From Heterodontus francisci (lineage: Eukaryota): a DNA stretch of 64,000 nt. The notes under the pieces were generated by a model, which saw nothing but the letters and a program-made list of their open reading frames with translations, did not search any database and was not told the DNA's origin. The translations under genes and the position numbers were made by a program. Positions 571 to 64,000 of the stretch are shown here, in pieces; position 1 is the first letter of the stretch, and each line of letters starts with the position of its first letter. The stretch is taken from assembly GCF_036365525.1 (NCBI RefSeq), contig NC_090399.1:54034430-54098429 (forward strand), given 5' to 3'.

Positions 571-2262
571 TGAATTGGGAGTTTGTTTCCAGGGTGGACA
601 CAGACAGCAATAGGGTTGTGAAGTGGTTAAGTGGAAGTGATCGGAGATGGCCTTATTGGTGACTAACACAATAGTGAAGCCACGTGAGGTGCCAAGGCCA
701 GGGGGAAGACCATGAATATGGGTTGGAAAGATTGAGGGAGAATGGAAGAACAGTGAACTTGAGAGAACATGATGAATTGAGGTGGAGCTTGAAATCAGCA
801 AGGAGACAGCCCCTGCACCAGGTGACTGAGGGAGGAAAGTTGTGAATATTCACTGAATTTTTATGGTTCTTAGATGGACAGTAGAGAATGCCCTTGACCT
901 GGGCCATCTTGTGGCCTCACTATTCCCATCATCTCTAAGAGGTCCATGATTGCTTCCTTGCATTGCCCTCCACCCACATTTCCCCCTACCCTACCCCTTC
1001 CATGTCTCTTCTCCACACCCACACCCCCAGAAAACATGCTTTTCCAATTCATTTATAACTACACTTCCAAAATCATGACATCAGATCATTGATATATTGA
1101 TTGCCAGTGCCAATGATTCATTGCCCTCTGAAGGATGAGAAACATTGACTGGAGAGGGTTTTCTGATTGAATAACAGATGTGAACATCCTGAGCCAGTAC
1201 CATACAAGGGAGAATCCTAGACTTCAGTTCTGTGAAGCAGTCAAATATCACTCTACCTGTGAGTTGTGGACTTTCCCAATGTTGTCTTGACTTTTGCACC
1301 AAGTGAATCAATGGCATTCCAGGCTGGAATGTCCTATAGGCAAGGAATGCTGAGTGACACCAACCACAGACCTTGGCATCTGACCATCTCAACCGGGCTC
1401 TCCTAGCAACTCATTTCTGCATTCAATCCTCCTCATGCCTATGTTTCACTCAGTGTTCCCTACATTTCACTTGGTGTTCCCTGGTCTAACTCTCTCCCCT
1501 TGGACTGGATATTGCTGGGCTGGGTCTTGCTGTAGGTGGATTGAGTGATGCTGCTTTGCATTGATCAGTCTCTGCCCTGAGCTGATCTTCACTCCTGCTG
1601 TTTCGCTCTGCATTCCCTGGTTCAACCCTCCCCTGGCCTGGAATTTGCTAGGGTCGTGTTGGTCAGTCTCTGACCCTATGAGCTGATATAGCTCAGCCAT
1701 GCCCACACATCCTAGTACTTTGCAATAAACTGCACCCACCTGGACCTCAGTTAAATATGCCCCTGATCACTGCCTCTGGTGCCACCTAGTCCTCCTCCCA
1801 GTTTTCACTGGAGGTTTGTGAACAAGCATTGAGGATCCACTTGCAATCATAGTACAAAGTAAGAAGTGGGCTTGTAGGGAAAGTCGCCAGGAACTACTGG
1901 ACCAGTTGCAGCACAGTAAATGGAGGGCTGACATCCCATTACTGATTGACTTCTCTGTTAGATATAATGCAGTGGTAACAAGCTCTCTATGAAGCTATTG
2001 TAAATCATTGTCTATTTGGGACGGAACATGAGACAAATAACATTGATTATTCAGTGGGAATCTCTCTGCCTTTCTTTCATGCACTGATCTTCACCTGAAT
2101 GAAGATTGGAACTTGCAGGCAAGGAACTGAATTAGGGTTTTCAGCAACTGTGTACAAACAGCAATAAGGGCTGGGGGAGAATCCGACATGAATGGAAACA
2201 TTTACTGAAATTATACTGTTCTTTCTATATTTCTAAAGTTAGCTTTTTTCTTTCTGTTCTAG

Positions 2263-2544
2263 TCGAACCCAAGGTCATTGTCCGACCTAAAACATCACAA
2301 CGTTCTGGCCAGTCAGCCCTGCTCACGTGTCATGTCACTGGATTTTACCCTCCCCAGATCAATGTCACATGGTTGAAAAATGGAGCACCAATTCCCAATG
2401 GTACCATCAACACTGCCCTACTATCGGATGGTGACTGGACCTATCAGGTGGAGGAACTCCTTCAGTATCAGCCAGTGCCTGGGGATAAGTATACCTGTCG
2501 TGTGGAACATAGCAGTCTGAAAGAACCCAGGAGCACAAACTGGG
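2263..2544 (+). CDS. MHC class II beta chain, beta2 (Ig C1-set) exon
   Basis: 282-bp phase 1-1 exon between ttttttctttctgttctAG and GTAAGA. Translates xEPKVIVRPKTSQRSGQSALLTCHVTGFYPPQINVTWLKNGAPIPNGTINTALLSDGDWTYQVEELLQYQPVPGDKYTCRVEHSSLKEPRSTNW, with C1-set CxxxGFYP, W and YTCxVxH, plus the class II beta-diagnostic GDWT (W153). Confidence 0.96.
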
Positions 2545-2584
2545 GTAAGAGACTCAATACGACCTGGAGCAGCTTGGGAGTAAC

Positions 2585-2720
2585 AACAAAATGCTGGAAA
2601 TACTCAGAAGGTCTTGCAGCACCTGTGGATAGAAACAGTTAGTGTTTGAGCTCAGTGACCCATTGACAGAACTGGGAGAGCTTAGATAAGGAACAGTTCG
2701 TAAGCTGTGGGGGGGGAGAG
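2585..2720 (-). mobile_element. Penelope-like terminal-repeat fragment (degraded)
   Basis: aaatgctggaaatactcag...gcagcacctgtggatagaaacag is the reverse complement of the repeat seen at 16720 and 32700. Confidence 0.6.
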
Positions 2721-2732
2721 AGAAGAGAGAAT

Positions 2733-2977
2733 GACTTTCATTTATACAAAGCTTTTCATGACCACTGGACATCCCAAAATGCTCGACAGCCAAGTACTTT
2801 TGAAGTGTGATGTCAGAAATGTGAGTCAATTTGTACACAGCAAGCTCCCACAAACAGCAATGTGATAATGACCAGCTAATCTGTTTTTGTGATGTTGATT
2901 GAGGGATAAATATTGACCAGGACCCCGGGGATAACTCCCCTGCTCTTCTTTGAAATAGTGCCCTGTGATCTTTTGTC
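2733..2977 (-). mobile_element. Deu-type SINE 3' part
   Basis: Reverse complement matches 36200-36400 (gcaggggagtt...cctggtcaatatttatccctca). Confidence 0.7.
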
Positions 2978-3139
2978 TTGATGAGCAAGGGGATGAGAGG
3001 ATTGGACCTACATCGCCCTGTCACCCCTCATGGCCTGCTTTGCTTCTTCAGGCAGAGCAAGTGGCCGAGAGGAGGGAAGCAGCATGGCCCGTGGCCTAGA
3101 GTTAACATCTGGAGTGGTGGGGAGGAAACGGGGTGTGTG

Positions 3140-3670
3140 GCCATCTACTACCACCCTCTGACTTCTATGGGCCAGCCAATGTTGTATCCAGACAGCCAAC
3201 TTTCCCTGTATCCCATGCCTCCTTACTTTCTGAATGAGCCTGCCATGGGGAACCTTATCAAATGCCTTGCTAAAATCCATATACACCACATCCACTGCTC
3301 TTCCTTCATCTGTGTTTTGTCACATCTTCAAAGAATTCAATAAGGCTTGAGACATGACCTGCCCCTCACAAAGCCATGCTGACTGTCTCTAATCAAACCA
3401 TGATTTTCCAAGTAATCATAAATCCTGTCTCTCAGAATCCTCTCCAATAATTTGCCCACTACTGACGTAAGACTGACTGGTCTATAATTCCCAGGGTTAT
3501 CCCTATTCCCTTTCTTGAACAAGGGAACAACATTTGCCACCCTCCAATCATCTGGTACTACTCCAGTGGACAGTGAAGATGCAAAGATCATTGCCAAAGG
3601 CGCAGCAATCTCTTCCCTCGCTTCCCGTAACATCCTTGGGTATATCCCCTCTGGCCCCAGGGACTTATCA
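3140..3670 (-). mobile_element. Internal CR1 reverse-transcriptase fragment, same young subfamily as 25205-28318
   Basis: DKSLGPEGIYPRMLREAREEIAAPL...NYRPVSLTS...DVVYMDFSKAFDKVPH is nearly identical to the 805-aa ORF. Confidence 0.92.
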
Positions 3671-3674
3671 GTTC

Positions 3675-4175
3675 TGTGATGGGGTGGAAATGGATTGGAG
3701 GGATTCAGACATGGAGTTCTGGAAAAGATGGGCACAGATTTGCGAGGTGACAACATGTTCAATGAATTTTTGTAGAGGAAAGGAAGGTTGGAGATGGGAT
3801 GGTAGTTTGCAAGGATGGTGGGGACGAGGGTTGGCTTTGTGAGGAGATGGATGATGACAGCCATTTTAAAGAAGAAACAATTAATAGTTTAAATGAGAAC
3901 AGTTAATATCAGCTGGGTCCAGGGGGGAGGTTGGATGGGAAGTTTAGTGAGAATAGGGTCGAAGGAGAATGAGGTGAGCTAGGAGAAAACTAGAGAAAGA
4001 TGAGTTGGGGCAGGGGGATCTTCAGAGGCAGTTTGGACAGGTGGGCGACTGGAAGGGAAGGACCCAGCAGAGGCAGCTGATGGTCTTTGTCACTAAGATA
4101 GAGACCATCTAAGAGCTCCTCACTTATTGTTGGAGGTGAGGGTGTGAGACAAGGGAGGCATTTAAGATTTAGCAT
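3675..4175 (-). mobile_element. L2-like LINE fragment
   Basis: Minus strand gives KPTLVPTILANYHPISNLPFL (L2 RT N-terminal motif); similar to 17400-17940. Confidence 0.7.
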
Positions 4176-4374
4176 TGATTGTCAAAGGTAAGTGGTTAGA
4201 TTCTTTTTTTGTTGGGAGGCGTGTTTAAGAAAATGTAAAATTTAAAGTTTCTGTTCTTGTCCAATACCTTTTGACTCATGGCAACTAGCTCATTAAAATC
4301 ACAGGCCAATAGAAAGCTTGGAGTAGGGCTTGGTGCTTTCCTCCAATACTTTTTGCAAATTTCACAATTCTCAA

Positions 4375-5200
4375 TCTATTCGCCTTGTATATTTGGCAAA
4401 CCTTTCACCCCCTTGCTGATCAAGAATCTATCTACCCCTGTCTTAAATATTCAAAGACTCTGCTTCCACCGCCTCTTCTTTTGAGGTAGAGAATTCCAAA
4501 GACACTCTATCCTCAGAAAAAAATTCTCCATCTGTCTTAAATGGGCAACCCCTTATTTTTTAAACAGTCACCCCTGGTTCTAGATTCTCCTGCAAGAGGA
4601 ACCATCTTTTCCACACCCACCCTGTCGAGACCCCTCAGGATCTTGTGCTTCAATCAAATCACCTCTACTCTTCCAAATTCCAGCAGATACAAGCCTAGCC
4701 TGTCCAATCTTTCCTCATAAGACAACCCATTATTCCAGTATTCGTCTAGTAAACCTTCTCTGAACTGCTTCCAATGCACTTACATCCTTCCTTAAATATG
4801 GCAACCAATACTGTACAAAGTAATCCAGATGTGGTCTCCAATGCTCTGTATAACTGAAGCATAACCTCCCTACTTTTGTATTCAATTCCCCACACAATAA
4901 ACAATAACATTCTACTAGCTTTCCTAACTGCTTGCTGTGCCTGCTTACTAACCTTTTGTGATTCATACACTAGGACAGCCAGATCCCTCTGCATCTGAGC
5001 TCTGCAATCTCTCTCCATTCAGATAATGCTTTTTTTATTCTTGCCAAAAAGGATAATTTCCCACATTGTACTCCATTTGCCAGATCTTTGCCCATGCACT
5101 TAACCTATCTACATCCCTTTGTAGCCTCCTTATGTCCTCTTCACAACTTACTTTCCTACTTTTTGTGTCATCAAATTTAGAAACTGTACCTTTTGGTCCC
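4375..5200 (-). mobile_element. CR1 LINE 3' fragment
   Basis: KFDDTK, WAKIWQMEYNV and RPHLDYFVQYWLPYLRKDV, with frameshifts. Confidence 0.9.
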
Positions 5201-6526
5201 TTCAAGTTTAGCCATATGTTGAGTTCCCTCATCATTCTGTCCTTTTCTATTCTCATACATAGCTGAAAAAGTATTCCAGAGATTACCAGCCTGCTTCCTA
5301 ACCTCATTTCATGTCACTCAGTCCTTTCCTATCTTGACTGCATGTGGATCATGACTGCTGTCCTTTCCATAACCTCTTCACAAGGTCCCTTATCCTCACC
5401 CCTGAGAATCTACAGGACTCTTGATCTGGACTGCACAAGATGCTGCCCAGCACCCTAATTAAGTCTCCTACCCCAACCCCTCCCAACATTTTTTTGTTGC
5501 TGTATTCCCTCACTTGCCGTCACCACTCCTTTATCACTGCCCGCTCCCCATCACACTCACTGGAGTGGCTACTCTCAAACTCTTGCTCTGGAAATCTCTC
5601 GTGTTATCTGTCTCCAACTCCCCCCTCACATTCTGACTTCTTAAACTTGAGTAATCTCAGTTGGAGACATCTCCCATGGATAGTTTTTGTTTGGGTTAAC
5701 ATCATCTATTCAATTTCTACATCCTGCACAAGCCAAACATCTGCCCTTCTTGTGCTGACCAGAAATGGTCATTCAGTTGGAGTTGGACGGGAATTTAAAC
5801 TGCTCTCTTCCTCCTTTTTCCCCTCTGTTAAATTCCCATGGTGGCATTATTGTCCTCTAGCTGCTACCAGCTCATTCCATTGTCAGCTCTCAGCTCAAAC
5901 TGCTGTATGAATTGCTTTGTGACCTTTTGATCCTGTTCCATTGGTGTAAAATATCAGGAATCTCATGTATCCTGTTCTGCAGTTTGACTCAAAGCAGTTT
6001 ATTAGTTGGAGGCAAGAGGATCATCACCAGGTGTCTGAGGATGTTAGAGTCCTTCCTGTGAAGCTTACTTTCACAGGGACAAGTGTAACCACATTCAAAC
6101 AGTTCATACAGATCCTATGCTTTGCTGGAATTCAGATACCTGCTGGAGCTGGAAGAGGTCACACAGCTGGAAATCCAGTGTAGTCAGCACCTTGTACCTT
6201 CCCAGTTTTCCATTCTTTTGCTTCACTCTCTGCAATTTTGCAAATTTCTCCAACTGCTGTCTGACTTCTGACACCATCAGAAACACACTTGGTACTGCTT
6301 GAGTGTCCATTTCCCTGGAAACTCAGGAGGGCACTCTCCCTCTTTCCTCCCAATGACTTGCCAAAGGCTGCTGTCACACCACATCACTTTCAAGTGCCTG
6401 AATGTGATTTCAGGCTGAACAAGGGTTTGAACTGGAATCCCATTCCCCAGTGATGTGACAGCAGGTTCTGTAGTTCAATAGGACACCTAGTGCTGTTTTA
6501 ACACTCGGATTGTTTCACTTGGACAG

Positions 6527-6643
6527 AAGTACAGGATACATCAGAATCGGAGAGAATCAAGATCATGGTTGGAGCCCTGGGCTTTGTGGTTGGGCTGATC
6601 ATCCTGTTGGCTGGAGTGATAATTAAGCTGAGGAATGCTAAAG
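6527..6643 (+). CDS. MHC class II beta chain, connecting peptide/transmembrane exon
   Basis: 117-bp phase 1-1 exon (cAG|AA...AAG|GTGAGA), in frame with the beta2 exon: EVQDTSESERIKIMVGALGFVVGLIILLAGVIIKLRNAK. Has the class II beta GxxGxxxGxxxxxxG TM motif and RNxK. Confidence 0.95.
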
Positions 6644-8089
6644 GTGAGATCCAGTTCCTGTCTGCAGAGTACAGGGGACTCCTGTTGTCTGTATCTGGGG
6701 ATTTCTGTGAGCCTTTGTTGGGGGAGGGGGCGGGGGGGTTGCAGGGGATGTCTGTAAGCTGCTGCCTCCTTGCACTGTACAAAGTGCAATCAGACTGATT
6801 GATTGTCTGGGAATATCCAGATATTAATTTAAAGTCTTCCCAGCTGACCTTAGTAAATCCAGCAGGTTGACATTGCTACCACTGGTGAGGCAGAGTCCTC
6901 CCATTGGGAACAGCTGATGCTGGTTTGGGTCTTGGTGCAATGTTTAAAAAAAAACTGAAACCAGGACAGCATAACTTTAATGTTCCTGGCATTCCAAAAG
7001 CAGAGTGAAATTCCTTGCCCCCTGAGCACCCCATCCCTGACCCAAATCAGGAACCTCTAACCATAAGTTGGAATATTATAAGCTGGGGTAGCATGTTTCT
7101 CAACTTGTCCTTCAGTATCAATAAGCCAGATAATCCTAAACTGTCGTAGTAACCCAAGTAAGTGAGTGCACATGGATGGCCCTCTGCCAACCATACAGTT
7201 ATGCCAAGTTCTTTCAGTCCCTGATTATGAAATTGACCATGACTCTAGATAGTTTCTAAATTCCATTTATTGTTTGAATTTTAGTATTTAGACATGGGAT
7301 GAGTTGCTGACGATATTGTGGCTGATGCTTCCTTTTACTCATAATCACATGACAGTGATCAGTCTGTGGTTGAATGTAAATAGTCAGTTGATCAAGCTGC
7401 TGCTGTCTTGACTTCCTCCTCCCCTCGACAGCAAGGATTGGCACCGATCTTTGTCCTTTACGTTTTATACAGTAGGACGTGCTAGGATGTTCCTTTCGGG
7501 CAAAACGCGAGCTAGTTAGTTAAGTCTATTTGCTTCGGAACACCGCAGGCTTCATCCAATTTCCACAGTTCTTTTGATATGCCAGTATTCTTTGTGATTT
7601 CCATCCCCACAATTCTTTTTGTTGACCTTATCAGCATAGGTACCTGCAAGTCTCAAGCATGTATAGTGTGCTGACTGGCATAACACCTTTTGCTTATCAG
7701 CCGTTTCATCCTGCAGGCCAGCACCCTGTGCTGATCACCTGGTCGATTGACTTCTTGTCTCCACAGAATGCCCTTCCCTCTGACATCAAACCTCCTTGCA
7801 AGGCTTGCTGGATCTTTTTGATCAAATTACCCAGTTTTGATTGGGCAGGCAGCATTCGCAAGCCTTGCCCAAGTGAATTTGATTGCGGCTGTAAGTATAC
7901 TGCAGGAATAGTCCAGCACATGCCACTGAAGGTATAAAACTATCAGGTCAAGAACAATTAGTGCTAGCTCTTACCAGAGGAACAAGAAACAGCAGCTTGA
8001 TAACTGTCTACATTCAACAACTGACTGATCCACTCTAGTGTGATTCTCAGTAAGTGGGCCCCATCTGGTGACCAATTGTAATATTTCCA

Positions 8090-8955
8090 ATTTTGCAGAT
8101 GACACAACTTAGTGGGAATGTGAGTTGAGGAGGATGCAAAGAGACTTCAAGGGGATTTGACAGATTGAGTAGGAAAGAACATGGCAGATGTAATATAATG
8201 AAGGTAAGTGTGAGGATATCCACTTTGGTAGGAGGAACAGAAGTGCAGAGTATTTCTTAAATGGTGTGGAAAGTGTTGATGTCCAAAGGGATTTGGGTGT
8301 CCTTGTTCATGAGTCACTGAAAGCTAGGATGCAGGTGCAGCAAGCAATTAAGAAGGCAAATGACATATTAACCTTTATCGTCTGAGGATTTGAGTACAGA
8401 AGCAAAGAAGTCTTTCTTCAGTTGTAGAGAACATTGGTAAGGCTGCACTGTGTGCCGTTCTGGCCTCCTTGCCTGAGGAAGGATATACTTGGCATAGAGG
8501 GAGTATAGTGGAGTTTCACTAGACTGATTCTTGGGATGGTGGGATTGTCCTATGAAGAGAGACTGAGGAGACCAGGCCTGTATTCTCAAGTTTAGAATAA
8601 TGAGAGGTGATCTTGTAGAAACTTACAAAATTCTTAAAGGGATAGATAGGGTAGATACAGAAAGGGTATTTCGCCTGGCTGTGGGGTCTAGAGCCAGGGG
8701 ACACAATCTCAGAATAAAGAACAAGCCATTTAGGACTGAGATGAGGAGGAACTTTGGAACTCTCTGCCCCAGAGGGTGGTGGACGCTCAGTCACTGCGTA
8801 AGTTCAAGACCGAGATCGATTAGATTTCTAGTTGCTCATGACATCAAGGGATATGGGGTTAGTGCGGGAATCCGGTATTGAGGTAGACGATCAGCCATGA
8901 CCTAGAATGGCGGAGCAGGCTCGAAGGGCTGAATGGCCTACTCTTGCTCTTATGT
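8090..8955 (+). mobile_element. CR1 LINE 3' fragment
   Basis: FADD region at the start, MRGDLVETYKILKG ORF, and 3' UTR ggctcgaagggctgaatggcctactc. Confidence 0.9.
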
Positions 8956-9644
8956 CTAAATACTAAAATGCAAACAAATTAAATTCAGAAACTAGAGTCA
9001 TAATCCAAGTTTGTAATCCTAGAGTAAAAAAAGCTGGGCATTGATTTACTTTGCAGCATATTTCCACATTCTACACAGACTTAAAGTCCATCTTTTCAAA
9101 ATTCGATTAAATTGTACCTGCATTAAATTGTGATGTAACCAGACACTAAAGTTCATTAAAAATACAGCAATCCAGTAACTGTTAGATTCTGACAGCATTT
9201 CAGTGAACAAGGAATGAAGCCCAGGCAGTGATCATTCACAGCAGGTTAAGTCCAGGGGAAACGCAATCTCAATTAGATATGGTATTGTTGGTTCATCAGA
9301 AACCAGTCATAAAAAAAAAATGTAATGCTGCAAACATGTGTTGTGAATTTAACTGGGCATGTGCTGGCTAGTATTAGTGTGAAAGCTGTTGTAAATCCTG
9401 TGTGGACTTTCCCTGCCACTATCTAAACATTGGAGAGATATGGAACACTTGAGTTTCAGATAACTAATTTTAATAGGAAGTAAATTAGGACAGCTCCAAA
9501 CCTGTCTCTGACCTCTGATCAGTGCTTCCATTGAGAGACTGCTAGCAGGCAGAGACTTGAATTTATCCCTGTGTTCAATGCATTAGCTGACTGGAGCTCA
9601 ATGAGGCTTGATCACCTGTACTGACCATGTTTACTTTCTTTCAG

Positions 9645-9671
9645 ATATCCTGGATTTCAATCTCCGCCCAC
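9645..9671 (+). CDS. MHC class II beta chain, short cytoplasmic exon
   Basis: 27-bp phase 1-1 exon after ctgacc...tttactttctttcAG and before GTATGT; gives DILDFNLRP. Size fits the small cytoplasmic exon of class II B genes. Confidence 0.85.
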
Positions 9672-10309
9672 GTATGTATCCCAGCAGGAAGATTATTTTC
9701 GATCTATTGCTGTGGGAGGATTGCTCTCAAATGAAGAGTCTACTCTTGACAAACAACAATTTTATTTCCTAGCATTCCCAGCTAGAAGTACCCAGGGCAG
9801 ATATATCAGGGGGCTAGATAGGGTAAAGCTCCCTCTTCACTGACTGGGAGTTGGATTGACACTGTCCTGAATCTAATTAACACAGGATCTTCACTGTTGG
9901 TCGAGATATACCTTCCATCCTGAGTGCAGGTGTAGGTGAAAAGCCTGTGCATGAACCCCGTGTTCCATTGGTCCCATCTCTAATAACACAAAAATCAGGC
10001 ATGTTACCCATGTGATGGAGATACTTTCTCAAGCCTGAGCTATCCAGGTCCCTAACATGTTGCAGACTGATCAATTGGCTGCATGGGTGTAAACACTCCC
10101 TCATCACCAGGTCTTAGTCTAGGTGTTCCCTTTGCTACAAAGATGACCCCTGATCCCCACCTAATATTTCCAGCCTTGATCATTTCTGGAATTGTACTGT
10201 ACAATCCATTACACTCCATTACAGTCCAGTGTATTGTACAACTCCAGCTTATTGCTACCTGCATACTGAGGTTAATAGCAGACAAGCCATGTGCTGTCTA
10301 ATGATTCAC

Positions 10310-10905
10310 ATTAGAAACATAAGATTTACAGAACAGAAGGAGGCCACTTGGCCCATGTCCATATCAACTGAAAAAGATCTATCCAGTCTAATCCCACCTT
10401 CCAGCTCTTTTCCCCTAGTGCTGTAGGTTACAGTATCTCTGGCGCAAATCCTTTTTTTTTAAAATCACGAGTTTCTGTCTCTGCTACCCTTTCAGGCAGT
10501 GAGGTCCAGACTGCCACCACTGCAGTTATTGACCTCTCTGAACAGAAATGGGCCCTTCCTACCCACTATATCTAGGCCCCTCATCATTTTATACACTTCA
10601 ATTGAATCTCCCCTCAGCCTCCTCTGTTCCAAAGAAAATAAACTCATCCTATCCAATCTTTCCCCATAGCCTAAGTTCGCCTTTTCCCAGCAACATCCTT
10701 GTAAATCTTTTCTGTATCTTCTCTCATGTGATCACTTCCTTCCCGTAATGTGGTGACCAGAACACTCTAGTACTCTAGCTGCAGTCTAACTAGTGTTTTA
10801 ACCATTCTAGCATAGCCTCCCTGCTCTTACACACTAGACCTCAGTCAATAAAAGAAAGTCTCCTGTATGCTGCCTTAAACACCTGTCCTGCTACCTTCAG
10901 GGATC
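10310..10905 (-). mobile_element. Degraded CR1 3' fragment
   Basis: Begins with the reverse-complemented CR1 tail (gaaacataaga...ggaggcc) and continues into ORF2 C-terminal-like sequence. Confidence 0.7.
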
Positions 10906-11029
10906 GAGATGTTGGGATGGCCACATGTTGAGGGGTGTGGGTGGTTTTCCCCCACCTCCCTGTGCACACAAACACACTTACTCCTTTTTGTGGTGTGTGG
11001 TACTGAGCTTTCAGCATCTACATAGACTT

Positions 11030-12410
11030 TTTTTCCATATCTGATTCAGTATACTCTTTGACATCAAGGGAGTCTAAATTTCCCTTTTACTTTGAGTATA
11101 TTTGTTCTAAACTCTATCTGCTAGTTGAATGCCTCCCACTGCTCTGACACTGACCTTCAAGTAGCTGTTTCCAGTCCACTTTTGCCAAATCACATCTCTG
11201 TTTAGTAAAATTGACATTTTCCCAACTTCAAACTTACTCTTGGTCTTGGTCATCTTTATCTTTTTCCATAACTACTGTAAATCTAACTGAACTACAATCA
11301 GCGTCACTAAAATGCTTTCCCACTGATTCCCTTCCACCTGCCCCGATTTGTTCCCTAAAACAAAGTCCAGAACTGTCCCATCTCTTCGAGTCATAGTTAT
11401 ACAGCACAAAAACAAACCCTTCGGCCCATTGTGTCTGTGCTGGCCATCCCGCACCCAACTATTCTAATCCCATATTGCTGCACTTGGCCTGTAGTCTTGT
11501 ATACTCTGGTGTTTCAAGTGCTCATCTAAATACTACTAAAATGTTGAGGGTTCCTGCCTCTCACCTCTTCAGGCAGTGCGTTCCAGATTCCAACCACCCT
11601 CTGGGTAAGAATGTTTCCTCAAATCCCCCTAAACCTCCTGCCCCTTACCCTAAATCTATGCCCCCTAGTTATTGACCCCCTCCACTAAGGGAAAAAGTTT
11701 CTTCCTATCTGACCTATTAATGCCCCTCATAATTTTGTATACCTCAATCATGTCCCTCCTCAGCCTTCTCTGCTCCAAGGAAAACGACCCTAGCCTTTTC
11801 AGTCTCTCTTCATAGCTGAAATGTTCCAGCCTGGGCAACATCCTGGTGAATCTCCTCTGCACCTTTTCCACTGCAGTCACATACTTCTATAGTGTGGTGC
11901 CCAGAACTGTACACATTACTCCAGCTGTGTCCTAACTAGCATTTGATGCAGCTCCATCATAACCTCCCTGCTTTTGTATTCTGTGCCACGGCTAATAAAG
12001 GCAAGTATCCCATATGCCTTCCTAACCACCTTATCTACCTGTGCTGCTGCCTTCAGTGATCTATGGACAAGTACAACAAGGTCCCTCTGACCTTCAGTAC
12101 TTCCTAGGGTCCTACCATCCATTGTATATTCCCTTGCCTTGTTGGTCCTCCCAAAATGCATTACCTCACAATTTTAAGGATTAAATTCCATTTGCCACTG
12201 CTCTGCCCATCTTACCAGCCCATCTATATATCCTGTAATCTAAGGATTTTCTCCACTATTTACAACACCAATTTTCGTGTCATCTGCAAACTTACTGATC
12301 ATACCTCCTATATTCACGTCTAAATCATTCATGTACACTACAAACAGCAGGGATCCCAGCACCAATCCCTGCAGTAAAACCACTGGTCACAGGCTTCCAA
12401 TTGCAAAAAT
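11030..12410 (-). mobile_element. Two abutting CR1 fragments (endonuclease part about 11030-11390; 3' RT part about 11392-12410)
   Basis: TRRDGTVLDFVLGN; MHFGRTNKAREYTMDG; EKVQRRFTRMLP; 3' UTR hairpin at about 11415-11430. Confidence 0.88.
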
Positions 12411-12819
12411 TGTTGGGTTTACTATGTGCTAGCTTAAAGTTCTGAATGCATTTTAATAGTTCTGTGCCCTGTACCTTTTCGTACAATGAATTTATTCCAG
12501 TTACTATTCAGGTAGTTGAAATCTCTTATTTACTGCCCTTTTTTTCTTTTCCAGCAATTAATCTACATATTTTCTCTCTCCCTATGACTGGGGGTCTATA
12601 GTTTACTCTCAACTGTGCATTTGTCCCTTTGTTGTTCAGCTAGACCCACATGGATTCATTTGATGCTCCTTCTAGCATAGCATCCCTGCTATAGCTGTGA
12701 TTATTTCTTTAACCAATATTGTAACCCCTCTATCCTGTTAGTCGTGTATATGCACTGATGGAATATTAACTGGTTCTGTACTGAGTCCTGTACTTTCTAA
12801 CCCTGGTAACCTTTTTTAG

Positions 12820-12845
12820 GTCTGATGGGTCCAACTGTCAGTTAA
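12820..12845 (+). CDS. MHC class II beta chain, terminal coding exon (RLMGPTVS*)
   Basis: Acceptor ctaac...cttttttAG|GT CTG ATG GGT CCA ACT GTC AGT TAA, phase-compatible with the 27-bp exon and followed by unique 3' UTR-like sequence. Confidence 0.85.
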
Positions 12846-13361
12846 CTGACCTGCTTGTGTGGATGCGATCTGAGACATTGGAACAGACAGGATTAAACAG
12901 CTTGAAAATTCATCTGAACTCCTTCCCCTGAGTCCATATCTGACATGATGACCACTCACTGGGTGTCAAGGTGCTTGACATTGCGGTTTTTATTGTTTGA
13001 GATTAGTTTTGTGATGTTGGAGATTTTTACACTGCGGCTTGTTTATCTTGTTAATGTCCCTTTTTTTTTTAGCGATGTATTTTTCAAGTGTGCAGCTGGA
13101 TCCTGATCAGTGACAAAGCTTCCCCCAGTACAAATAGCTCTGTTCAGTGTAGACTCCCAGTACAAGTGTGTGAAACGAGGATCAGTGCTGGTTGTAGGTC
13201 TGTGACCCTCCCACTCGTCCTTGTCTGTCTCCATTCATCCTCATTTGTAAATATTTTGAACTCTATATTTTTACTTGCCAAGTTCTCTATTTTATATCTG
13301 AATTATTGCAAATTTTAATTTAACCTTTTTAATCTTTGCATCTCATAGCAGAACCAGTTTA

Positions 13362-23780: not shown

Positions 23781-24274
23781 CCATGTCCAAATAAGGAAGT
23801 GTTTGTGCTTGTCTGTTACTCATACAGTAACAGATTCACTGTCAACAAGAGAATTAACCACATACCAACAGTTTCCATTTGGAAATGACACCATCACATC
23901 TGTAAATATTATTTGGGTCATCACAGTGCCAGCTAACCAATAAGATCCTTCCAATACCAATTTGTCATCAGTTGTTAACAGCCTGTCACATACAACAACT
24001 CAAAGTGAAGCCTCAGTTGTGTTAGTGGATGGAAACCATTCTCCAGAGACACTGGATTCGAATAAGATGGAGGCTGTGCCCTCCATAAATATCCTTCCAG
24101 ACCGAGGTGAAGGTGGAACAAGTGCTGCAAAACTGTGGCCTTGAATCTCACCTCTTCATACACCTGGTGGCTGGACACAGAAAGCAGAGGCTTCCTGTCA
24201 TAGGAACATAGATAAAGACCAGGGTTCATCTTGTTTACTTTCTACCATACTGGTAATCACATCATGAGCCATGA

Positions 24275-31015: not shown

Positions 31016-31560
31016 AGTATGGCAAGGGGTGAAATTAGAAGAAAGGATGGGGTCAGAGGGAAGGGAAGGGGAAGAAAAATCTGGAGGAGTGTTAGTCCCC
31101 ATCAGTTGCTGGAGCTTACGTTCCTTAAAACCTGAAAGGAGGAGAAAACGTTTTTTGTCAATGCGCGGATAAGACAAAGGATGAAATGAAACTGCGGAGT
31201 AGAACAGCTTTGAAATAAGGTGAGGAGGTGCTTCTGGTGAGAAACGTTCAGTGTGTACATGTGGTAGACACTTTATCAAACACCAGGAGGGAAATAGAAA
31301 GCGATGAACAAGGTAAAAGAGACAAATGGTAAACCAGTCGGAGAGAAGAGCAGAACTTCTTCAAGGTAGGCATTCCTGGAAGAGAAGTGGTAGTCAATTA
31401 AATACTAAAATAAAAGCAAAATACTGCGGATGCTGGAAATCTGAATTAAAAAACAGAAACTGTTTGTCTCTCCAAAGATGCTGCCAGCCCCGCTGTGTAT
31501 TTCCAACACTTTCTGTTTTTATTTCAAATTTCCAACATCTGCAGTATTTTGCTTTTATTT
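31016..31560 (-). mobile_element. Penelope-like element 5' relic with inverted terminal-repeat pair
   Basis: Minus-strand ORF-like IDKKRFLLLSGFKERKLQQL; aataaaagcaaaatactgcggatgctggaaatctgaa (31408-) is inverted relative to ttcaaatttccaacatctgcagtattttgcttttatt (-31559). Confidence 0.65.
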
Positions 31561-35935: not shown

Positions 35936-36400
35936 AGGTGTCAGCTGTGACTCAGTAGTATTGTTCAAACCACCGAGGCAGAAGGTTATGGATTGAAGTC
36001 TAACTCCAGAGACTTGAACATACAATCGAGACTGGCATTCCAGTGTAGTACTGAGGGAGTCAGAGGGTCATTACTACGGGAGTGCGACATGTCGGAGGGT
36101 CAGTACTCATGGTGTGCTGCACTGTTAGGGGGCAGTATTGAGGGGGTGCTGCACTGTCAGAGGTGCCATCTTTCAGATGAGACTTAAAAACATGTGGATT
36201 TAAATGGTCGCAAAGCAGTATTTGAAGTAAAGCAGGGGAGTTCTCCCCATTGTCCTGGTCAATATTTATCCCTCAAGCAACATCACTAAAACAGATTATC
36301 TGGTCATTGTTGTTTGTGGGATCTTGCTGTGCACAAATTGGCCGCTGGGTTCACCTACACTTCAAAAGTAATCCTGCGGTGAAAGGTACAATATAAATAC
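35936..36400 (+). mobile_element. DeuSINE-like element
   Basis: Degenerate tRNA-like head, then Deu-domain-like cagtgtagtactgagggag...tgcactgtcagaggtgccatctttcagatgagac. Confidence 0.75.
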
Positions 36401-36544
36401 ATGTAGCCATTCCAGTACAGCTGTGACACTGTCAGCTACCCAATAATGTGAAAGAATGCACAGGTATATCCTCTCCACAACAGAACAGGATAAATCTAAC
36501 CCAGTCAATTAACACCTATCAGCCTCCTCCTGCTCATCAGTAAA

Positions 36545-36738
36545 GTGATGGGATTATTAACAGTCACACCGAGTGATCCCCAGTCACCAACACTCAGTTC
36601 AGGTTCCACCAGAAATATCTCCAGACTTCATCATAGCTTTGACCCAGACCCTGGGCACATGAGCTGAATGTCAGAGGAGGGGAGGTGATGGGATCATTAA
36701 CAGTGACACCGAGTGATCCCCAGTCACCAACACTCAGT
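36545..36738. repeat. 54-bp direct duplication (36545-36598 and 36685-36738)
   Basis: gtgatgggat(t/c)attaacagt(c/g)acaccgagtgatccccagtcaccaacactcagt; 2 mismatches, 140-bp offset. Confidence 0.95.
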
Positions 36739-37092
36739 AAAAGTGACATGTTTAGTGAGATTCTCTCTGTGCTCACACTCGCTGTTTGATCAGACATTAA
36801 TAGTGAGCGGGGGATGGGTGAGTGTACACTCATTTAGTGAAATGCCTTTTGACCTGAAACCCTGTTGGTAAAATTCATTCACACTGTACAGAGTGAAACC
36901 TTTCTGTAATGTCTGAGGTTCAAAGCCCTTTATTACAGCCCGTGCAGTGAAAGGTTAGTGTTTCAGTGTATTCGAGAGCTGGCCATTGCCCTCCTGAGTT
37001 TGGTTCACCTATAACATGGTGTTAATCAGCTGCAGTGAGACTCAGAGGCTCAGTAATGAGTGTGTAGGAGCTCAGAGCAGTTTCCTGTTCTA

Positions 37093-37116
37093 GGGGAAGT
37101 TTCATGTGAAAGTCCC
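37093..37116. promoter_or_regulatory. Pair of NF-kB-like sites
   Basis: GGGGAAGTTTC and TGAAAGTCCC (reverse complement GGGACTTTCA), 3 bp apart; ETS-like gtttcct just upstream. Confidence 0.45.
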
Positions 37117-37227
37117 TGGGTCCCATTCAATGTCACTGATATAAATTAACACTGAACATTGATTTTTTAACAAAATTAACACTGTAATTTATTCAGTTTG
37201 GATATTAAGTTACATTTAGCTGTGACT

Positions 37228-37272
37228 AACCAACGAATTGCCAGTTTCGATGCAGTGTCATCAGTTGCTGGG
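37228..37272 (-). promoter_or_regulatory. MHC class II-like X1/X2-Y module
   Basis: Minus strand cCCAGCAACTGATG-ACA...(21 nt)...ttcGTTGGTT: X1-like RFX site, overlapping TGAC (X2), and a degenerate Y box at near-canonical spacing. Confidence 0.55.
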
Positions 37273-37394
37273 TAAAGTTGGTTTGGAATTGTTACCCAGT
37301 TAGAGATCAGCACTGCATTCCTGACTGACATTATAAAAGTAAAATACTGCAGATGCTGGAAATCTGAAATTAAAACATAAAATGCTGGAAAGTT

Positions 37395-38215
37395 ATTATT
37401 GTATCTGCTTCCACCATCCTTTCAGGCAGTGCATTCCAGATCATAACAAATCACTGTGTGAAATAAATTCTCCTCATCTCCCCTCTGCCAATTACCTTTA
37501 ACCTGTATTCTCCAGTTACTGACCCTCCTACCACTGGAAACAGTTTCTCCTTATTTACTCTATTAAAACTCTTCGTGATTTTACACCTCCATAAATCTCC
37601 CTTTAACTTTCTCTGCATCTAAGGAGAACAATCCCAGCTTCTCTAATCTATCCACATAACTGAAGTCCCACATCCATGGTACCATTCTTGACCAGGCTCA
37701 ACTTGTCCTTCCACCCTTAAAGATTTGTTCACATACAACCCCAAATCTTTGTCCCCTTACCCACTTTAAAACTGACCATTTCGTTTATATTGTCTCTCCT
37801 CCTTCCACCAAAATGCATCATTTCACAATTCTCCGTTAAATTTCACCTGCCTTGTGACAGCCCATTTAACCAGTCTGTCCAGATCCTCCTGAAATTTCTT
37901 CACATCCTCCTCACTGTTTACTACATTTCCAAGGTTTGTGTCATCTGCAGTTTGAAATTATATCCTGTATATCCCAGTCTGGGTCATTAATAATATTTCA
38001 ATAACAGCAGTGGTCTCAGTACTGACTCCTGGGGAACACCATTGTATACATCCCTCCAGTCTAAAAAACAGCTGTTCACCACTGCTCACTGCTTTCTGTC
38101 CTTTAGTCAATTTTAAATCCAATCACCCGAAACCCATTTAATCCCAGGGGCTTCAATTTTGATAACATGTGGAAGTTTATCAAACATCTGTTAAATGCCC
38201 GTATGCACAACATCA
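37395..38215 (-). mobile_element. Degraded CR1 fragments (short Penelope piece at about 37335-37392)
   Basis: Reverse complement of GVPQ, ADD and C-terminal CR1 segments. Confidence 0.75.
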
Positions 38216-38398: not shown

Positions 38399-41300
38399 TC
38401 ACTCAATAGCTGCAAGGAAAGGAGAGAGAATGTCAGTAACAAGCTGGGATTAGACAGAGGACAGAGAGGGCCAGTAACCAGCTGGGATTAGACAGAACAC
38501 AGAGAGAGTCAGTAACCAGCTGGGATTAGACAGAGGACAAAGAGAGTCAGTAACCAGCTGGGATTAGACAGAACACAGAGAGAGTCAGTAACAAGATAGG
38601 ATTAGACAGAGGACAGAGAGGGCCAGTAACCAGCTGGGATTAGAAAGAACACAGAGAGAGTCAGTAACCAGCTGGGATTAGACAGAGGACAGAGAGGGCC
38701 AGTAACCAGCTGGGATTAGACAGAACACAGAGAGAGTCAGTAACCAGCTGGGATTAGACAGAGGACAGAGAGGGCCAGTAACCAGCTGGGATTAGACAGA
38801 ACACAGAGAGAGTCAGTAACCAGCTGGGATTAGACAGAGGACAGAGAGAGTCAGTAAACAGCTGGGATTAGACAGAGGACAGAGAGAGTCAGTAACCAGC
38901 TGGGATTAGACAGAGGACAAAGAGAGTCAGTAACCAGCTGGGATTAGACAGAGGACAAAGAGGGCCAGTAACCAGCTGGGATTAGACAGAGGACAAAGAG
39001 GGTCAGTAACCAGCTGGGATTAGACAGAAGACAAAGAGGGCCAGTAACCAGCTGGGATTAGACAGAACACAGAGAGAGTCAGTAACCAGCTGGGATTAGA
39101 CAGAGGACAGAGAGAGTCAGTAACCAGCTGGGATTAGACAGAGGACAAAGAGGGTCAGTAACCAGCTGGGATTAGACAGAAGACAAAGAGGGCCAGTACC
39201 CAGCTGGGATTAGACAGAACACAGAGAGAGTCAGTAACCAGCTGGGATTAGACAGAGGACAGAGAGTGTCAGTAACCAGCTGGGATTAGACAGCGGACAA
39301 AGAGGGCCAGTAACCAGCTGGGATTAGACAGAAGACAAAGAGGGCCAGTAACCAGCTGGGATTAGACAGAACACAGAGAGAGTCAGTAACCAGCTGGGAT
39401 TACACAGAAGACAGAGAGAGTCAGTAACAAGATAGGATTAGACAGAGGACAGAGAGTGTCAGTAACCAGCTGGGATTAGACAGAACACAGAGAGAGTCAG
39501 TAACAAGATAGGATTAGACAGAGGACAAAGAGAGTTAGTAACCAGCTGGGATTAGACAGAGGACAAAGAGGGCCAGTAACAAGATAGGATTAGACAGAAG
39601 ACAGAGAGAGTCAGTAACCAGCTGGGATTAGACAGAGGACAAGATTAGATTAGATTAGAACATTACAGCGCAGTACAGGCCCTTCGGCCCTCGATGTTGC
39701 GCCGACCTGTGAAACCATCTGACCTACACTATTCCTTTTTCATCCATATGTCTATCCAATGACCACTTAAATGCCCTTAAAGTTGGCGAGTCTACTACTG
39801 TTGCAGGCAGGGCGTTCCACGCCCCTACTACTCTCTGCGTAAAGAAACTACCTCTGACATCTGTCCTATATCTTTCACCCCTCAACTTAAAGCTATGTCC
39901 CCTCGTGTTTGCCATCATCATCCGAGGAAAAAGACTCTCACTATCCACCCTATCTAACCCTCTGATTATCTTGTATGTCTCTATTAAGTCACCTCTCCTC
40001 CTCCTTCTCTCTAACGAAAACAACCCCAGAGTGTCAGTAACCAGCTGGGATTAGACAGAACACAGAGAGAGTCAGTAACAAGATAGGATTAGACAGAAGA
40101 CAAAGAGGGCCAGTAACCAGCTGGGATTAGACAGAAGACAGAGAGAGTCAGTAACAAGATAGGGTTAGACAGAGGACAGAGAGTGTCAGTAACCAGCTGG
40201 GATTAGACAGAAGACAAAGAGGGCCAGTAACCAGCTGGGATTAGACAGAAGACAGAGAGAGTCAGTAACAAGATAGGATTAGACAGAGGACAAAGAGGGC
40301 CAGTAACCAGCTGGGATTAGACAGAAGACAGAGAGAGTCAGTAACAAGATAGGGTTAGACAGAGGACAGAGAGTGTCAGTAACCAGCTGGGATTAGACAG
40401 AGGACAAAGAGGGCCAGTAACCAGCTGGGATTAGACAGAAGACAGAGAGAGTCAGTAACAAACTGGGATTACACAGAACACGAGAGAGAGGGTCAGTAAC
40501 CAGCTGGGATTACACAGAACAGGAGAGAGAGGGTCAGTAACCAGCTGGGATTACACAGAACAGGAGAGGGAGGGTCAGTAACCAGCTGGGATTACATAGA
40601 ACAGGAGAGAGAGGGTCAGTAACCAGCTGGGATTACACAGAACAGGAGAGAGAGGGTCAGTAACCAGCTGGGATTACATAGAACAGGAGAGAGAGGGTCA
40701 GTAACCAGCTGGGATTACACTGAAATGCCCCCTACTTTACCAGATTTCAGTCGTGTTAAGGGGATACTGATGGAAGTGTATGATGGGCCATCCTGTGGAT
40801 GTGATATTGTAATTCATTCCTATCAGCCTGTTCGAGCAATATAAATCTTCCTTAGACAGTATTAGAGGAAAAGTAGGGATATCTCCCAGTGTCCAGGACA
40901 ATATTCCTCCCTCAATCAATACCACCAAATCTCACACAAATCTGCTGCTGTGTTTCCCATTACACAGTGACTAACCTTCAAACATGAATCACTCAGTGGA
41001 AAGATTATTCGGAAAATCCTGTGGATGTGGCTAATTCTTTTAATGCTAGTTCTACATTATTGTGGTATCACTGGAGAGTGCAGGTACAGACTGGTGTGGG
41101 GTCAGTCTAGGATTGATATGGGGAAGGGTCACCACACAGAGTGATGGAGTGAGGTGAGGTTATCAGTAGCTGGAATCTCTGACTATAATTACTGTATAGA
41201 GCAGCAGAGCAGTGTTTTCAGGATCACTCTCAGTACTGACAGGGTTACATTTTATTGTCAATTATCAGAGGTGGAAAGTCCCTCAAACTGAAACCAGTCA

Positions 41301-41404
41301 TGCGGTGAAACCACAGACCAGATGTTGGTGTAAATATAAACCGACTCAAAACCCAGCTTTGGAGAATAAAATATTTCTGGAGAGTCACCTGACTCTGGAT
41401 GAAC
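38399..41404 (-). CDS. Candidate cytoplasmic-tail exons of an unidentified minus-strand gene (41404-41389, 40792-40741, 38409-38399)
   Basis: AG/GT-bounded segments splice in frame to xFIQSQ|DGPSYTSISIPLTRLKS|AIE*. Strong acceptor ttctctctcctttccttgcAG at 38410; no homology recognised. Confidence 0.3.
38432..40720. repeat. 38-bp minisatellite, about 50 copies (last 6 or so are a 40-bp variant), split by a CR1
   Basis: Unit gtcagtaaccagctgggattagacagaggacagagaga. Confidence 0.98.
39643..40027 (-). mobile_element. Young 5'-truncated CR1 inserted in the minisatellite
   Basis: Uninterrupted ORF2 C-terminus FSLERRRRRGDLIETYK...DEKGIV*; CpG-rich 3' UTR; (TCTAA)n tail. Confidence 0.95.
41273..41295. 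promoter_or_regulatory. NF-kB site abutting an ISRE-like site
   Basis: GGAAAGTCCC (perfect GGGACTTTCC on the minus strand) followed by tcAAACTGAAACC. Confidence 0.55.
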
Positions 41405-54722: not shown

Positions 54723-54784
54723 CACACACACCAAAGCTGTTCTTGCAGGGAACATAACATTCCACCCACTGACTCCACCTTCTA

Positions 54785-63700: not shown

Positions 63701-64000
63701 GAGACAGTGATCAGGGTCCAGTTAAACCTGTATTAAATTAGTGAGTGAACTCGATTCACTGATGGTCCATGACTGGGATTGGATTCAGTGGGAGACAGTG
63801 ATCAGGGTTCAGTTAAACCTGTATTAAATTAGTGAGTGAGCTCGATTCACTGATGGTCCATGACTGGGATTGGATTCAGTGGGAGACAGTGATCAGGGTC
63901 CAGTTAAACCTGTATTAAATTAGTGAGTGAGCTCGATTCACTGATGGTCCATGACTGGGATTGGATTCAGTGGGAGACAGTGATCAGGGTCCAGTTAAAC
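57716..64000. repeat. 91-bp tandem satellite, about 69 highly homogeneous copies, running off the window end
   Basis: Unit ttaaacctgtattaaattagtgagtgagctcgattcactgatggtccatgactgggattggattcagtgggagacagtgatcagggtccag. Confidence 0.99.

What the first reader, a model, noticed from the sequence alone, without database searches (positions are those of the whole stretch)
37080..37300. Orphan MHC-II-like X1/X2/Y module plus paired NF-kB sites, far from any evident first exon
Seen: minus-strand CCAGCAACTGATG, overlapping TGAC, a Y-like ttcGTTGGTT 21 nt later, a second RFX-like half-site (gttaccc), and two kB-like sites 110 bp away, all in unique sequence. Established: the 13-mer matches the HLA-DRB X1 box as I recall it, and mammals have both promoter S-X-Y modules and distal inverted S'-Y' enhancers bound by RFX/CIITA. 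The Y core is GTTGG rather than ATTGG and the S box is poor. Inference: either the promoter of a decayed minus-strand MHC gene or a distal CIITA/NLRC5-type enhancer, which to my knowledge is not described in sharks.
Basis: partly seen in the sequence, partly recalled or inferred. Interest (0 to 1): 0.7.

Follow-up and report, generated by a model that had tools for sequence, protein, structure and literature searches.

The report
Shark MHC class II distal X-Y module
A gene-less, reversed copy of the MHC class II on-switch motif, paired with two NF-kB-like sites, lies 24 kb past the end of a shark class II beta gene; it is likely a long-range enhancer like those known in mammals, and this copy is likely weakened by a one-letter change.

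Summary
The motifs are real and at the stated places. The element lies 24 kb past a complete class II beta gene, spliced in two RNA sets, 48 kb from that gene's own X-Y promoter and reversed to it. It is low-copy, not unique: three copies, all in the class II region. The 99%-identical copy has an intact ATTGG, so the G here is likely derived. No leader exon, TATA box or MHC exon remnant follows it, so a decayed promoter is unlikely. It is one of 11 gene-less X-Y modules outside genes in about 1 Mb; four of six families carry kB-like sites just past Y. Best reading: a distal RFX/CIITA-type enhancer, likely weakened in this copy (0.6); a dead remnant is the main rival. S box and Y core fail; binding, chromatin and cross-species conservation are untested. 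I found none in print for sharks; this scan noted similar modules in other shark and skate genomes (unchecked).

The parts
37259..37272 (-). X1 box (predicted RFX site)
   Evidence: Exact match located; identical in all three genomic copies; same 14-mer as the module at C29:52226215.
37255..37260 (-). X2 half-site TGACAC (predicted CREB/ATF-type site), overlapping X1
   Evidence: unchanged in copies 2 and 3.
37228..37237 (-). Y box with a changed core (GTTGG; ATTGG in copy 2, ACTGG in copy 3), 24 nt after the X1 14-mer
   Evidence: Spacer length is kept in all three copies although 5 spacer letters differ in copy 3.
37291..37297 (+). RFX-like half-site at about the S-box position; no S-box consensus
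   Evidence: place; 4 mismatches of 7 to the recalled S consensus; changed by one letter in copy 2.
37107..37116 (-). kB-like site, 1 mismatch from the recalled kB consensus
   Evidence: the 24-mer spanning both kB sites is identical in 3 of 3 copies and found nowhere else in the genome at up to 3 mismatches.
37093..37103 (+). second kB-like site, facing the first
   Evidence: It did not pass the 1-mismatch kB pattern; weaker than the first.
37078..37087 (-). ETS-like purine core next to the kB pair (label recalled)
   Evidence: unchanged in copies 2 and 3.
37007..37146 (.). 140-bp block with 1 difference from copy 3, covering the kB pair
   Evidence: longest run with at most 1 mismatch, p = 0.00095 in 20000 permutations of 48 mismatches over 583 aligned bases; gene conversion could give the same.
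36059..38190 (.). 2.1-kb block shared at 96% (core 99%) with copy 2 at C29:53801205-53803327
23937..23979 (-). second reversed X1-X2-Y module in the window, intact ATTGG at the same 24-nt spacing, weaker X1
   Evidence: 19.0 bits; paralogue at C29:53792435 (91%).
41273..41399 (-). third module: exact kB site plus ISRE-like site; X degenerate and Y lost in this copy
   Evidence: paralogue at C29:52193726 keeps ATTGG.
2261..13354 (+). 3' part of the MHC class II beta gene (beta2, transmembrane, cytoplasmic and last exons), the nearest candidate target
   Evidence: C1-set and class II beta matches; GT..AG joints 2543-6526, 6641-9643, 9671-12820 in RNA contigs; promoter, leader and beta1 exons lie before the window.

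Best explanation
This is a gene-less, reversed X1-X2-Y module with a kB-like pair, 24 kb past a shark class II beta gene, and it likely acts as a distal enhancer of the class II alpha/beta pair, likely at reduced strength in this copy. Shown: the motifs, their order and spacing, the locus layout, three copies, an intact Y core in the nearest paralogue, and a series of like modules around both class II gene pairs. Inferred from mammalian work: RFX on X1, a CREB-type factor on X2 and NF-Y on Y would form a platform for CIITA, which would open chromatin and contact the promoter 48 kb away; NF-kB on the paired sites would add an inflammatory input. Inferred from the sequence: the A-to-G change in the CCAAT core would weaken NF-Y binding here, while the intact copy 77 kb upstream of the alpha promoter and the neighbouring modules could cover for it.
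For: (1) Genome-wide the X-Y arrangement is an MHC-chromosome signature: 13 of 15 strict matches lie on C29, all at one spacing, control 1; 27 of 44 looser matches lie on C29, which is 1.2% of the genome, controls 3. (2) The same arrangement sits at the real class II promoters, each followed by a leader exon. (3) In 998 kb, 17 sites score 18 bits or more: 5 promoter-type, 1 inside a IIB intron, 11 gene-less outside genes; 13 score 22 or more against a shuffle mean of 0.17. 9 of the 11 are reversed to the class II genes; one of the other two is copy 3, inside a local inversion. (4) The 24-nt spacing recurs with an intact ATTGG in copy 2 and at three sites unrelated to the finding (spacer identity 2-3 of 20); two of those branches share only 11-12 of 20 spacer letters yet keep the length. 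ATTGG lies at offsets 22-24 in 13 of 358 X-box hits, against 32 over the other 52 offsets, 8 of them at offset 14. (5) kB-like sites (up to 1 mismatch) lie within 220 nt past Y in 4 of 6 gene-less families and 0 of 5 promoter-type sites; background 16%. Two families that blastn does not align keep X-Y-ISRE-kB at like distances (z = 9.3). (6) Position behind the beta gene is kept in both class II gene pairs. (7) RFXAP, RFX5-type and NLRC5-type domains are encoded in this genome. (8) Mammalian distal X-like and SXY-like elements bind RFX and CIITA and act as enhancers (PMC7866136; PMC1802633 Table 1); imperfect Y boxes can still bind NF-Y (PMC2278383); human class II XY motifs span a 3-bp length range (PMC4381081).
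Against: The Y core is changed in 2 of 3 copies, this one included. Motif positions are not significantly better kept than the rest against copy 3: 3 of 60 versus 45 of 523 differ, p = 0.25. The 99% identity to copy 2 runs on into a repeat fragment, so it reflects recent duplication or conversion, not selection. No S box (4 of 7 mismatches; true promoters 2-3). The spacing is 1 nt longer than at the IIB-2 promoter and at 24 of the 27 C29 matches, and 2 nt longer than at the IIA promoters. The kB enrichment is modest once the two related families are merged (3 of 5, p = 0.03; 3 of 6, p = 0.06). No binding, chromatin or reporter data; no second species could be compared; CIITA itself was not looked for in this genome. 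The target is assigned by distance alone.
Confidence: 0.6

Rival explanations
1. A dead remnant: the module was once functional, was copied with the class II unit, and this copy is now decaying neutrally while other modules do the work.
For: Y core changed in this copy and in copy 3; no significant excess of conservation at motif positions (p = 0.25); the neighbouring module at 41273-41399 has lost its Y in this same unit; S box absent.
Against: X1, X2, spacer length and the kB 24-mer are unchanged in 3 of 3 copies; a 140-bp block over the kB pair has 1 difference where about 11 are expected (p = 0.00095); imperfect modules are still bound and active in human cells (PMC2278383).
Confidence: 0.24
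2. The promoter of a lost or unrecognised minus-strand gene (a deleted MHC gene or a non-coding transcript).
For: Such orphans exist here: a class II alpha-type promoter with its leader exon and no further exon found lies at C29:53748285. X-Y followed by kB sites resembles the mammalian invariant-chain promoter (recalled; not confirmed by search).
Against: No TATA box and no ATG-leader-donor in the 627 nt after Y; no class I or class II exon remnant by tblastn with 6 probes at E up to 1; 3 of 111 low-copy ORFs hit Pfam, all transposon domains; no Rfam match; the flanks do not resemble the IIA or IIB promoters.
Confidence: 0.07
3. A CIITA-independent element: an RFX-family site plus kB and ETS-like sites, in which the Y-like sequence is incidental or no longer needed.
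For: The best-kept parts are X1/X2 and the kB block, not Y; a second RFX-like half-site lies 20 nt from X1.
Against: The likely ancestral state is a perfect ATTGG at a spacing shared with unrelated modules.
Confidence: 0.07
4. Chance match or a transposon-borne look-alike.
For: A dispersed LINE-like family carries an X-24-ATTGG look-alike: 13 of the 17 off-C29 matches; 9 were fetched and align with each other.
Against: The printed blastn hits of those 9 repeats (first 40 rows) do not touch the finding or its copies; only three copies genome-wide; composite score rare in nulls.
Confidence: 0.02

Closest known systems
Distal S'-Y' enhancers and XL (X-box-like) elements of the human MHC class II locus (DRAe, Ii S'-Y' and Y''-S'', sites #2, #4, #6, #8; XL4, XL7)
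   Same: Gene-less X1-X2-Y arrangement at promoter-like spacing, scattered in several copies between class II genes (PMC7866136; PMC1802633; 12 intergenic CIITA sites in PMC4381081).
   Different: No recognisable S box; Y core changed in this copy; a kB-like pair follows Y; it lies 3' of the beta gene; it is in a cartilaginous fish; binding is untested. The founding paper (Krawczyk 2004) was not available, so its exact spacing rule was not seen.
Proximal SXY module of MHC class II promoters, including this shark's own IIA and IIB promoters
   Same: X1, X2 and Y order; X1-to-ATTGG spacing within 1-2 nt (22 at IIA, 23 at IIB-2, 24 here).
   Different: Reversed, no TATA box or leader exon behind it; kB-like sites present here and at 0 of 5 promoter-type sites.
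NLRC5-type SXY module of class I promoters with enhancer A (kB) and ISRE
   Same: Joins an X-Y module to kB-like (and in sister modules ISRE-like) sites; NLRC5 modules allow a 3-bp X-Y range (PMC4374748).
   Different: NLRC5 specificity rests on a distinctive S box, which is not evident here; the kB sites lie on the Y side, whereas at mammalian class I promoters they lie upstream of S (recalled); the nearest class I-type exon found downstream is about 458 kb away.

Membership tests
Distal S'-Y' enhancer (RFX/CIITA) | X1 box | tested here: met
   Same 14-mer as other MHC modules of this genome; 18.4 bits on the X1X2 matrix.
Distal S'-Y' enhancer (RFX/CIITA) | X2 box overlapping the 3' end of X1 | tested here: met
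   TGACAC at 37255-37260, kept in 3 of 3 copies; half-site only.
Distal S'-Y' enhancer (RFX/CIITA) | Y box with an intact inverted CCAAT core | tested here: not met
   GTTGG in this copy; met in copy 2, not in copy 3.
Distal S'-Y' enhancer (RFX/CIITA) | S box at fixed distance upstream of X | tested here: not met
   Best match 4 mismatches of 7 to the recalled consensus GGACCYY; the four shark class II promoters give 2-3, so the mammalian consensus may fit sharks poorly.
Distal S'-Y' enhancer (RFX/CIITA) | Promoter-like X-Y spacing | tested here: inconclusive
   24 nt, against 22-23 at IIA and IIB-2 promoters and 20 to the first ATTGG at IIB-1; human motifs vary over 3 bp but the measures could not be mapped exactly.
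Distal S'-Y' enhancer (RFX/CIITA) | Away from any first exon, within the class II locus | tested here: met
   48,230 nt from the IIB-2 X box; no gene found behind it.
Distal S'-Y' enhancer (RFX/CIITA) | Bound by RFX and CIITA in vivo; enhancer activity | not testable with these tools
   No ChIP, ATAC or reporter data.
XL (X-box-like) element | Intergenic homology to the class II X box | tested here: met
   Definition from PMC7866136; sequence and place.
NLRC5-type class I SXY module | Distinctive S box that confers NLRC5 specificity | tested here: inconclusive
   Requirement from PMC4374748; its consensus is in a figure that I could not see; no S-like motif is evident.
MHC gene promoter | Leader exon with splice donor within about 300 nt of Y | tested here: not met
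   Present at the IIA and IIB promoters, absent here.

The most novel reading that the evidence does not exclude
Sharks surround their class II genes with a dense field of reversed X-Y enhancers that, unlike the shark class II promoters, are wired to NF-kB and interferon-type sites, so long-range CIITA control of class II, with a direct inflammatory input, dates to the origin of adaptive immunity. The modules are born and lost by duplication, and the one-letter Y-box difference between two 99%-identical copies flanking one gene pair is a natural tuning variant.
Probability: 0.3. Interest if true: 0.7.

Novelty: new variant of a known kind. Interest (0 to 1): 0.46.

Why it matters
Distal RFX/CIITA enhancers of the class II locus are described in the mammalian papers I read; two genomic surveys of shark MHC contain no mention of promoter, enhancer or CIITA. 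If these modules work, long-range coordination of class II genes is as old as jawed vertebrates, and the added kB/ISRE sites point to a blend of class I-type and class II-type control. Two near-identical copies that differ at one base of the CCAAT core give a ready-made test of NF-Y dependence.

Tried and rejected
RNA: no RNA holder listed for the element. Three RNA-type contig sets of one sample gave no cover over 36404-37243 while two of them showed spliced class II beta joints; tissues are unknown and contigs drop rare RNAs, so this is not counted as evidence. Other species: only one organism label held the stretch in the run index, which finds near-identical DNA only, and no related genomes are offered, so conservation in other sharks is untested. 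Look-ups of earlier notes by sequence, relatives and nearby place were blank. PF00969 found no beta1 exon genome-wide; both beta1 exons were then read directly. Wrong-spacing controls with the composite matrix were uninformative because strong X boxes pass alone; replaced by the offset count. Whether the G is fixed, heterozygous or an assembly error is open: the one DNA contig over the site carries the intact letter, but its depth of 15.7 fits a G fixed in this copy (15.7) a little better than heterozygous (16.9) or absent (18) if each copy gives depth 9; weak either way. A reversed-strand fold was misaligned for copy 3 and redone. The first repeat-masking script timed out. Literature searches for helical-phase spacing (0 papers) and invariant-chain kB sites gave nothing usable. 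The X box at window 31100-31113 has no Y behind it and was rejected.

Full report
1. Observation. The X1 14-mer (up to 1 mismatch) occurs twice in the window, shuffle mean 0.07. A matrix built from four other modules of this genome gives 24.3 bits, reached once in 8 shuffles of 0.66 Mb, in none of 12 shuffles of 1.0 Mb and in none of 48.8 million Markov positions. Three of the four training sites came from a pattern written around this X box, so the score is somewhat flattered. The motif names are recalled; their arrangement is confirmed by PMC7866136 (passages).

2. Place. The window is C29:54034430-54098429 of a 6.0-Gb genome; C29 carries both class II alpha hits and 58 of the 64 class I hits. 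The window starts inside a class II beta gene (IIB-2): beta2 exon with C1-set and class II beta matches, spliced joints 2543-6526, 6641-9643 and 9671-12820 in RNA-type contigs, beta1 and leader exons upstream of the window. Its promoter is an X1-X2-23-ATTGG module with a TATA box and leader exon at C29:54023471. The finding lies 48,230 nt from that X box, about 24 kb past the last exon, on the opposite strand. The alpha promoters (C29:53879239 and 51964638) have spacing 22; IIA-2 was read through to its leader exon and IIA-1 aligns with it at 78%. The IIB-1 promoter has its first ATTGG at 20 and several more behind.

3. Copies. The 331-bp core has 3 matches in the genome, all in the class II region; the 24-mer over the kB pair also has 3 at up to 3 mismatches. 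Copy 2 (C29:53802407, 99%) has an intact ATTGG and lies 76,832 nt upstream of the IIA-2 promoter, in a block collinear with window 19.5-41.5 kb, so the IIA-2/IIB-2 pair is flanked on both sides by the same block. Copy 3 (C29:52141891, 92%) lies behind the other beta gene inside a local inversion and reads ACTGG. Copies 2 and 3 share the A, so ATTGG is the most parsimonious ancestor; because the G forms a CpG, two independent losses of G cannot be excluded. Against copy 3, X1, X2 and spacer length are unchanged while 5 spacer letters differ, and a 140-bp block over the kB pair has 1 difference (p = 0.00095), but motif positions as a set are not significantly better kept (3 of 60 versus 45 of 523, p = 0.25). 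The 99% identity to copy 2 extends into a repeat fragment and so is not evidence of selection. I cannot exclude that the duplicated units are divergent haplotypes placed in tandem by the assembly.

4. Not a promoter of a visible gene. No TATA box and no ATG-leader-donor follow Y within 627 nt. Six class I/II exon probes found no remnant in the fetched DNA at E up to 1 beyond the known exons and two short hits at E 0.6-0.8. Of 111 low-copy ORFs of 50 aa or more from window 13.4-54.5 kb and the 40 kb past the window's end, 3 hit Pfam, all transposon domains; the first 34 kb past the window are mostly satellite. Short exons could be missed. By contrast a true orphan, an alpha-type promoter with leader exon at C29:53748285, is easy to recognise.

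5. One of a series. Genome-wide, 13 of 15 strict X-Y matches lie on C29, all at spacing 23, control 1; a looser pattern gives 27 of 44 on C29, controls 3, and 13 of the other 17 are one LINE-like family whose printed hits do not touch the finding. In 998 kb around the two class II pairs, 17 sites score at least 18 bits (shuffle mean 5.3) and 13 at least 22 (mean 0.17); 2 of the 17 are training sites. Five are promoter-type, one is intronic and 11 are gene-less outside genes, 9 of them reversed. I checked for genes behind the window's own modules; for those at 52.12-52.23 Mb only by MHC probes and by reading 520 nt. They fall into six families. Spacing 24 with intact ATTGG recurs at C29:53792435, window 23979 and C29:52183171, unrelated to the finding in the spacer (2-3 of 20 letters), so 24 looks like a tolerated spacing and not decay. 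kB-like sites follow Y in 4 of 6 families and 0 of 5 promoter-type sites, background 16%; two of the four are old relatives that keep X-Y-ISRE-kB (z = 9.3), and merging them leaves 3 of 5 (p = 0.03).

6. Mechanism. In mammals RFX, CREB and NF-Y bind X1, X2 and Y together and recruit CIITA; distal X-like and SXY-like elements bind RFX and CIITA and enhance class II expression (PMC7866136, passages; PMC1802633, passages with Table 1; PMC4381081, passages). Modules lacking S and with an imperfect Y can still bind NF-Y and drive CIITA-dependent reporters at 25-40% of HLA-DRA (PMC2278383, section 11). RFXAP, RFX5-type and NLRC5-type domains are present in this genome; CIITA was not searched. I therefore infer a distal enhanceosome platform with an added NF-kB input, acting on the IIA-2/IIB-2 promoters, weakened here by the Y change (0.6). 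Rivals: dead remnant (0.24), lost promoter (0.07), CIITA-independent RFX/kB element (0.07), chance or transposon (0.02). No step of binding, looping or activation is shown.

7. Comparison and novelty. It works, if at all, like the human S'-Y' and XL elements. It fails strict membership of the S'-Y' class on the S box and on the Y core of this copy, and meets the looser XL definition. Term searches for shark or fish X-Y modules (listings only) showed no paper on distal modules in cartilaginous fish, and PMC10751288 and PMC8010645 contain no 'promoter', 'enhancer' or 'CIITA' (term counts); subscription papers are not covered and Krawczyk 2004 was not held. PMC1351924 (passages) and PMC4374748 (passages) cover mammals only. 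[quoted passage not shown]

8. Verdict. A real, low-copy X-Y/kB module in the class II locus; likely a distal enhancer, likely a weakened copy; new variant of a known kind; interest 0.46.

Noticed in passing
window 23937-23979 (-); paralogue G000:C29:53792435: A second reversed X1-X2-24-ATTGG module with intact Y, 10 kb past the beta gene's last exon; X1 is more degenerate here than in its paralogue.
   Followed up: partly
window 41273-41399 (-); paralogues G000:C29:52193726 and about 53830300-53830600: ISRE-like site plus an exact kB site behind a degenerate X; Y is lost in the window copy and kept at 52193726.
   Followed up: partly
G000:C29:53748285 (-), L057: Class II alpha-type promoter with an intact-looking leader exon and donor, but no alpha1 or alpha2 exon found behind it: a likely orphan first exon.
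   Followed up: partly
G000:C29:65097004-66464522 (L043-L052): Ten near-identical X1-X2-23-ATTGG modules in three clusters, 3-32 kb apart within clusters; the three read are followed by a tandem repeat of about 42 bp and no leader exon was seen.
   Followed up: no
G000:C29:52196930, 52212111, 52226215 (-): Three tandem copies of a high-scoring X-Y module followed by ISRE-like and kB sites, between the first class II pair and a class I-like gene; one copy has lost the ISRE.
   Followed up: partly
G000:C29:52033706-52034050 (+): The IIB-1 promoter has its first ATTGG only 20 nt after X1 and a run of further Y boxes before the TATA box.
   Followed up: no
G000:C29:52117394 and 50592368 (-): A duplicated distal module, 1.5 Mb apart and about 75% identical, that keeps X1, Y and a kB-like site.
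   Followed up: partly
L003:773 (G000:C29:52141105, +): A second perfect X1 14-mer 786 nt from copy 3, with ATTGG 13 nt later, about one helical turn short of the usual spacing; single copy in the fetched DNA.
   Followed up: no
L135-L143 (several contigs): A dispersed LINE-like family whose reverse-transcriptase-like coding stretch mimics X1-X2-24-ATTGG; a source of false hits in motif scans (family type judged by eye).
   Followed up: partly
window 38420-40724, 54654-57735, 57716-64000 and beyond: Tandem arrays, including a 91-bp repeat that runs past the window's end, followed by about 33 kb of further satellite.
   Followed up: no
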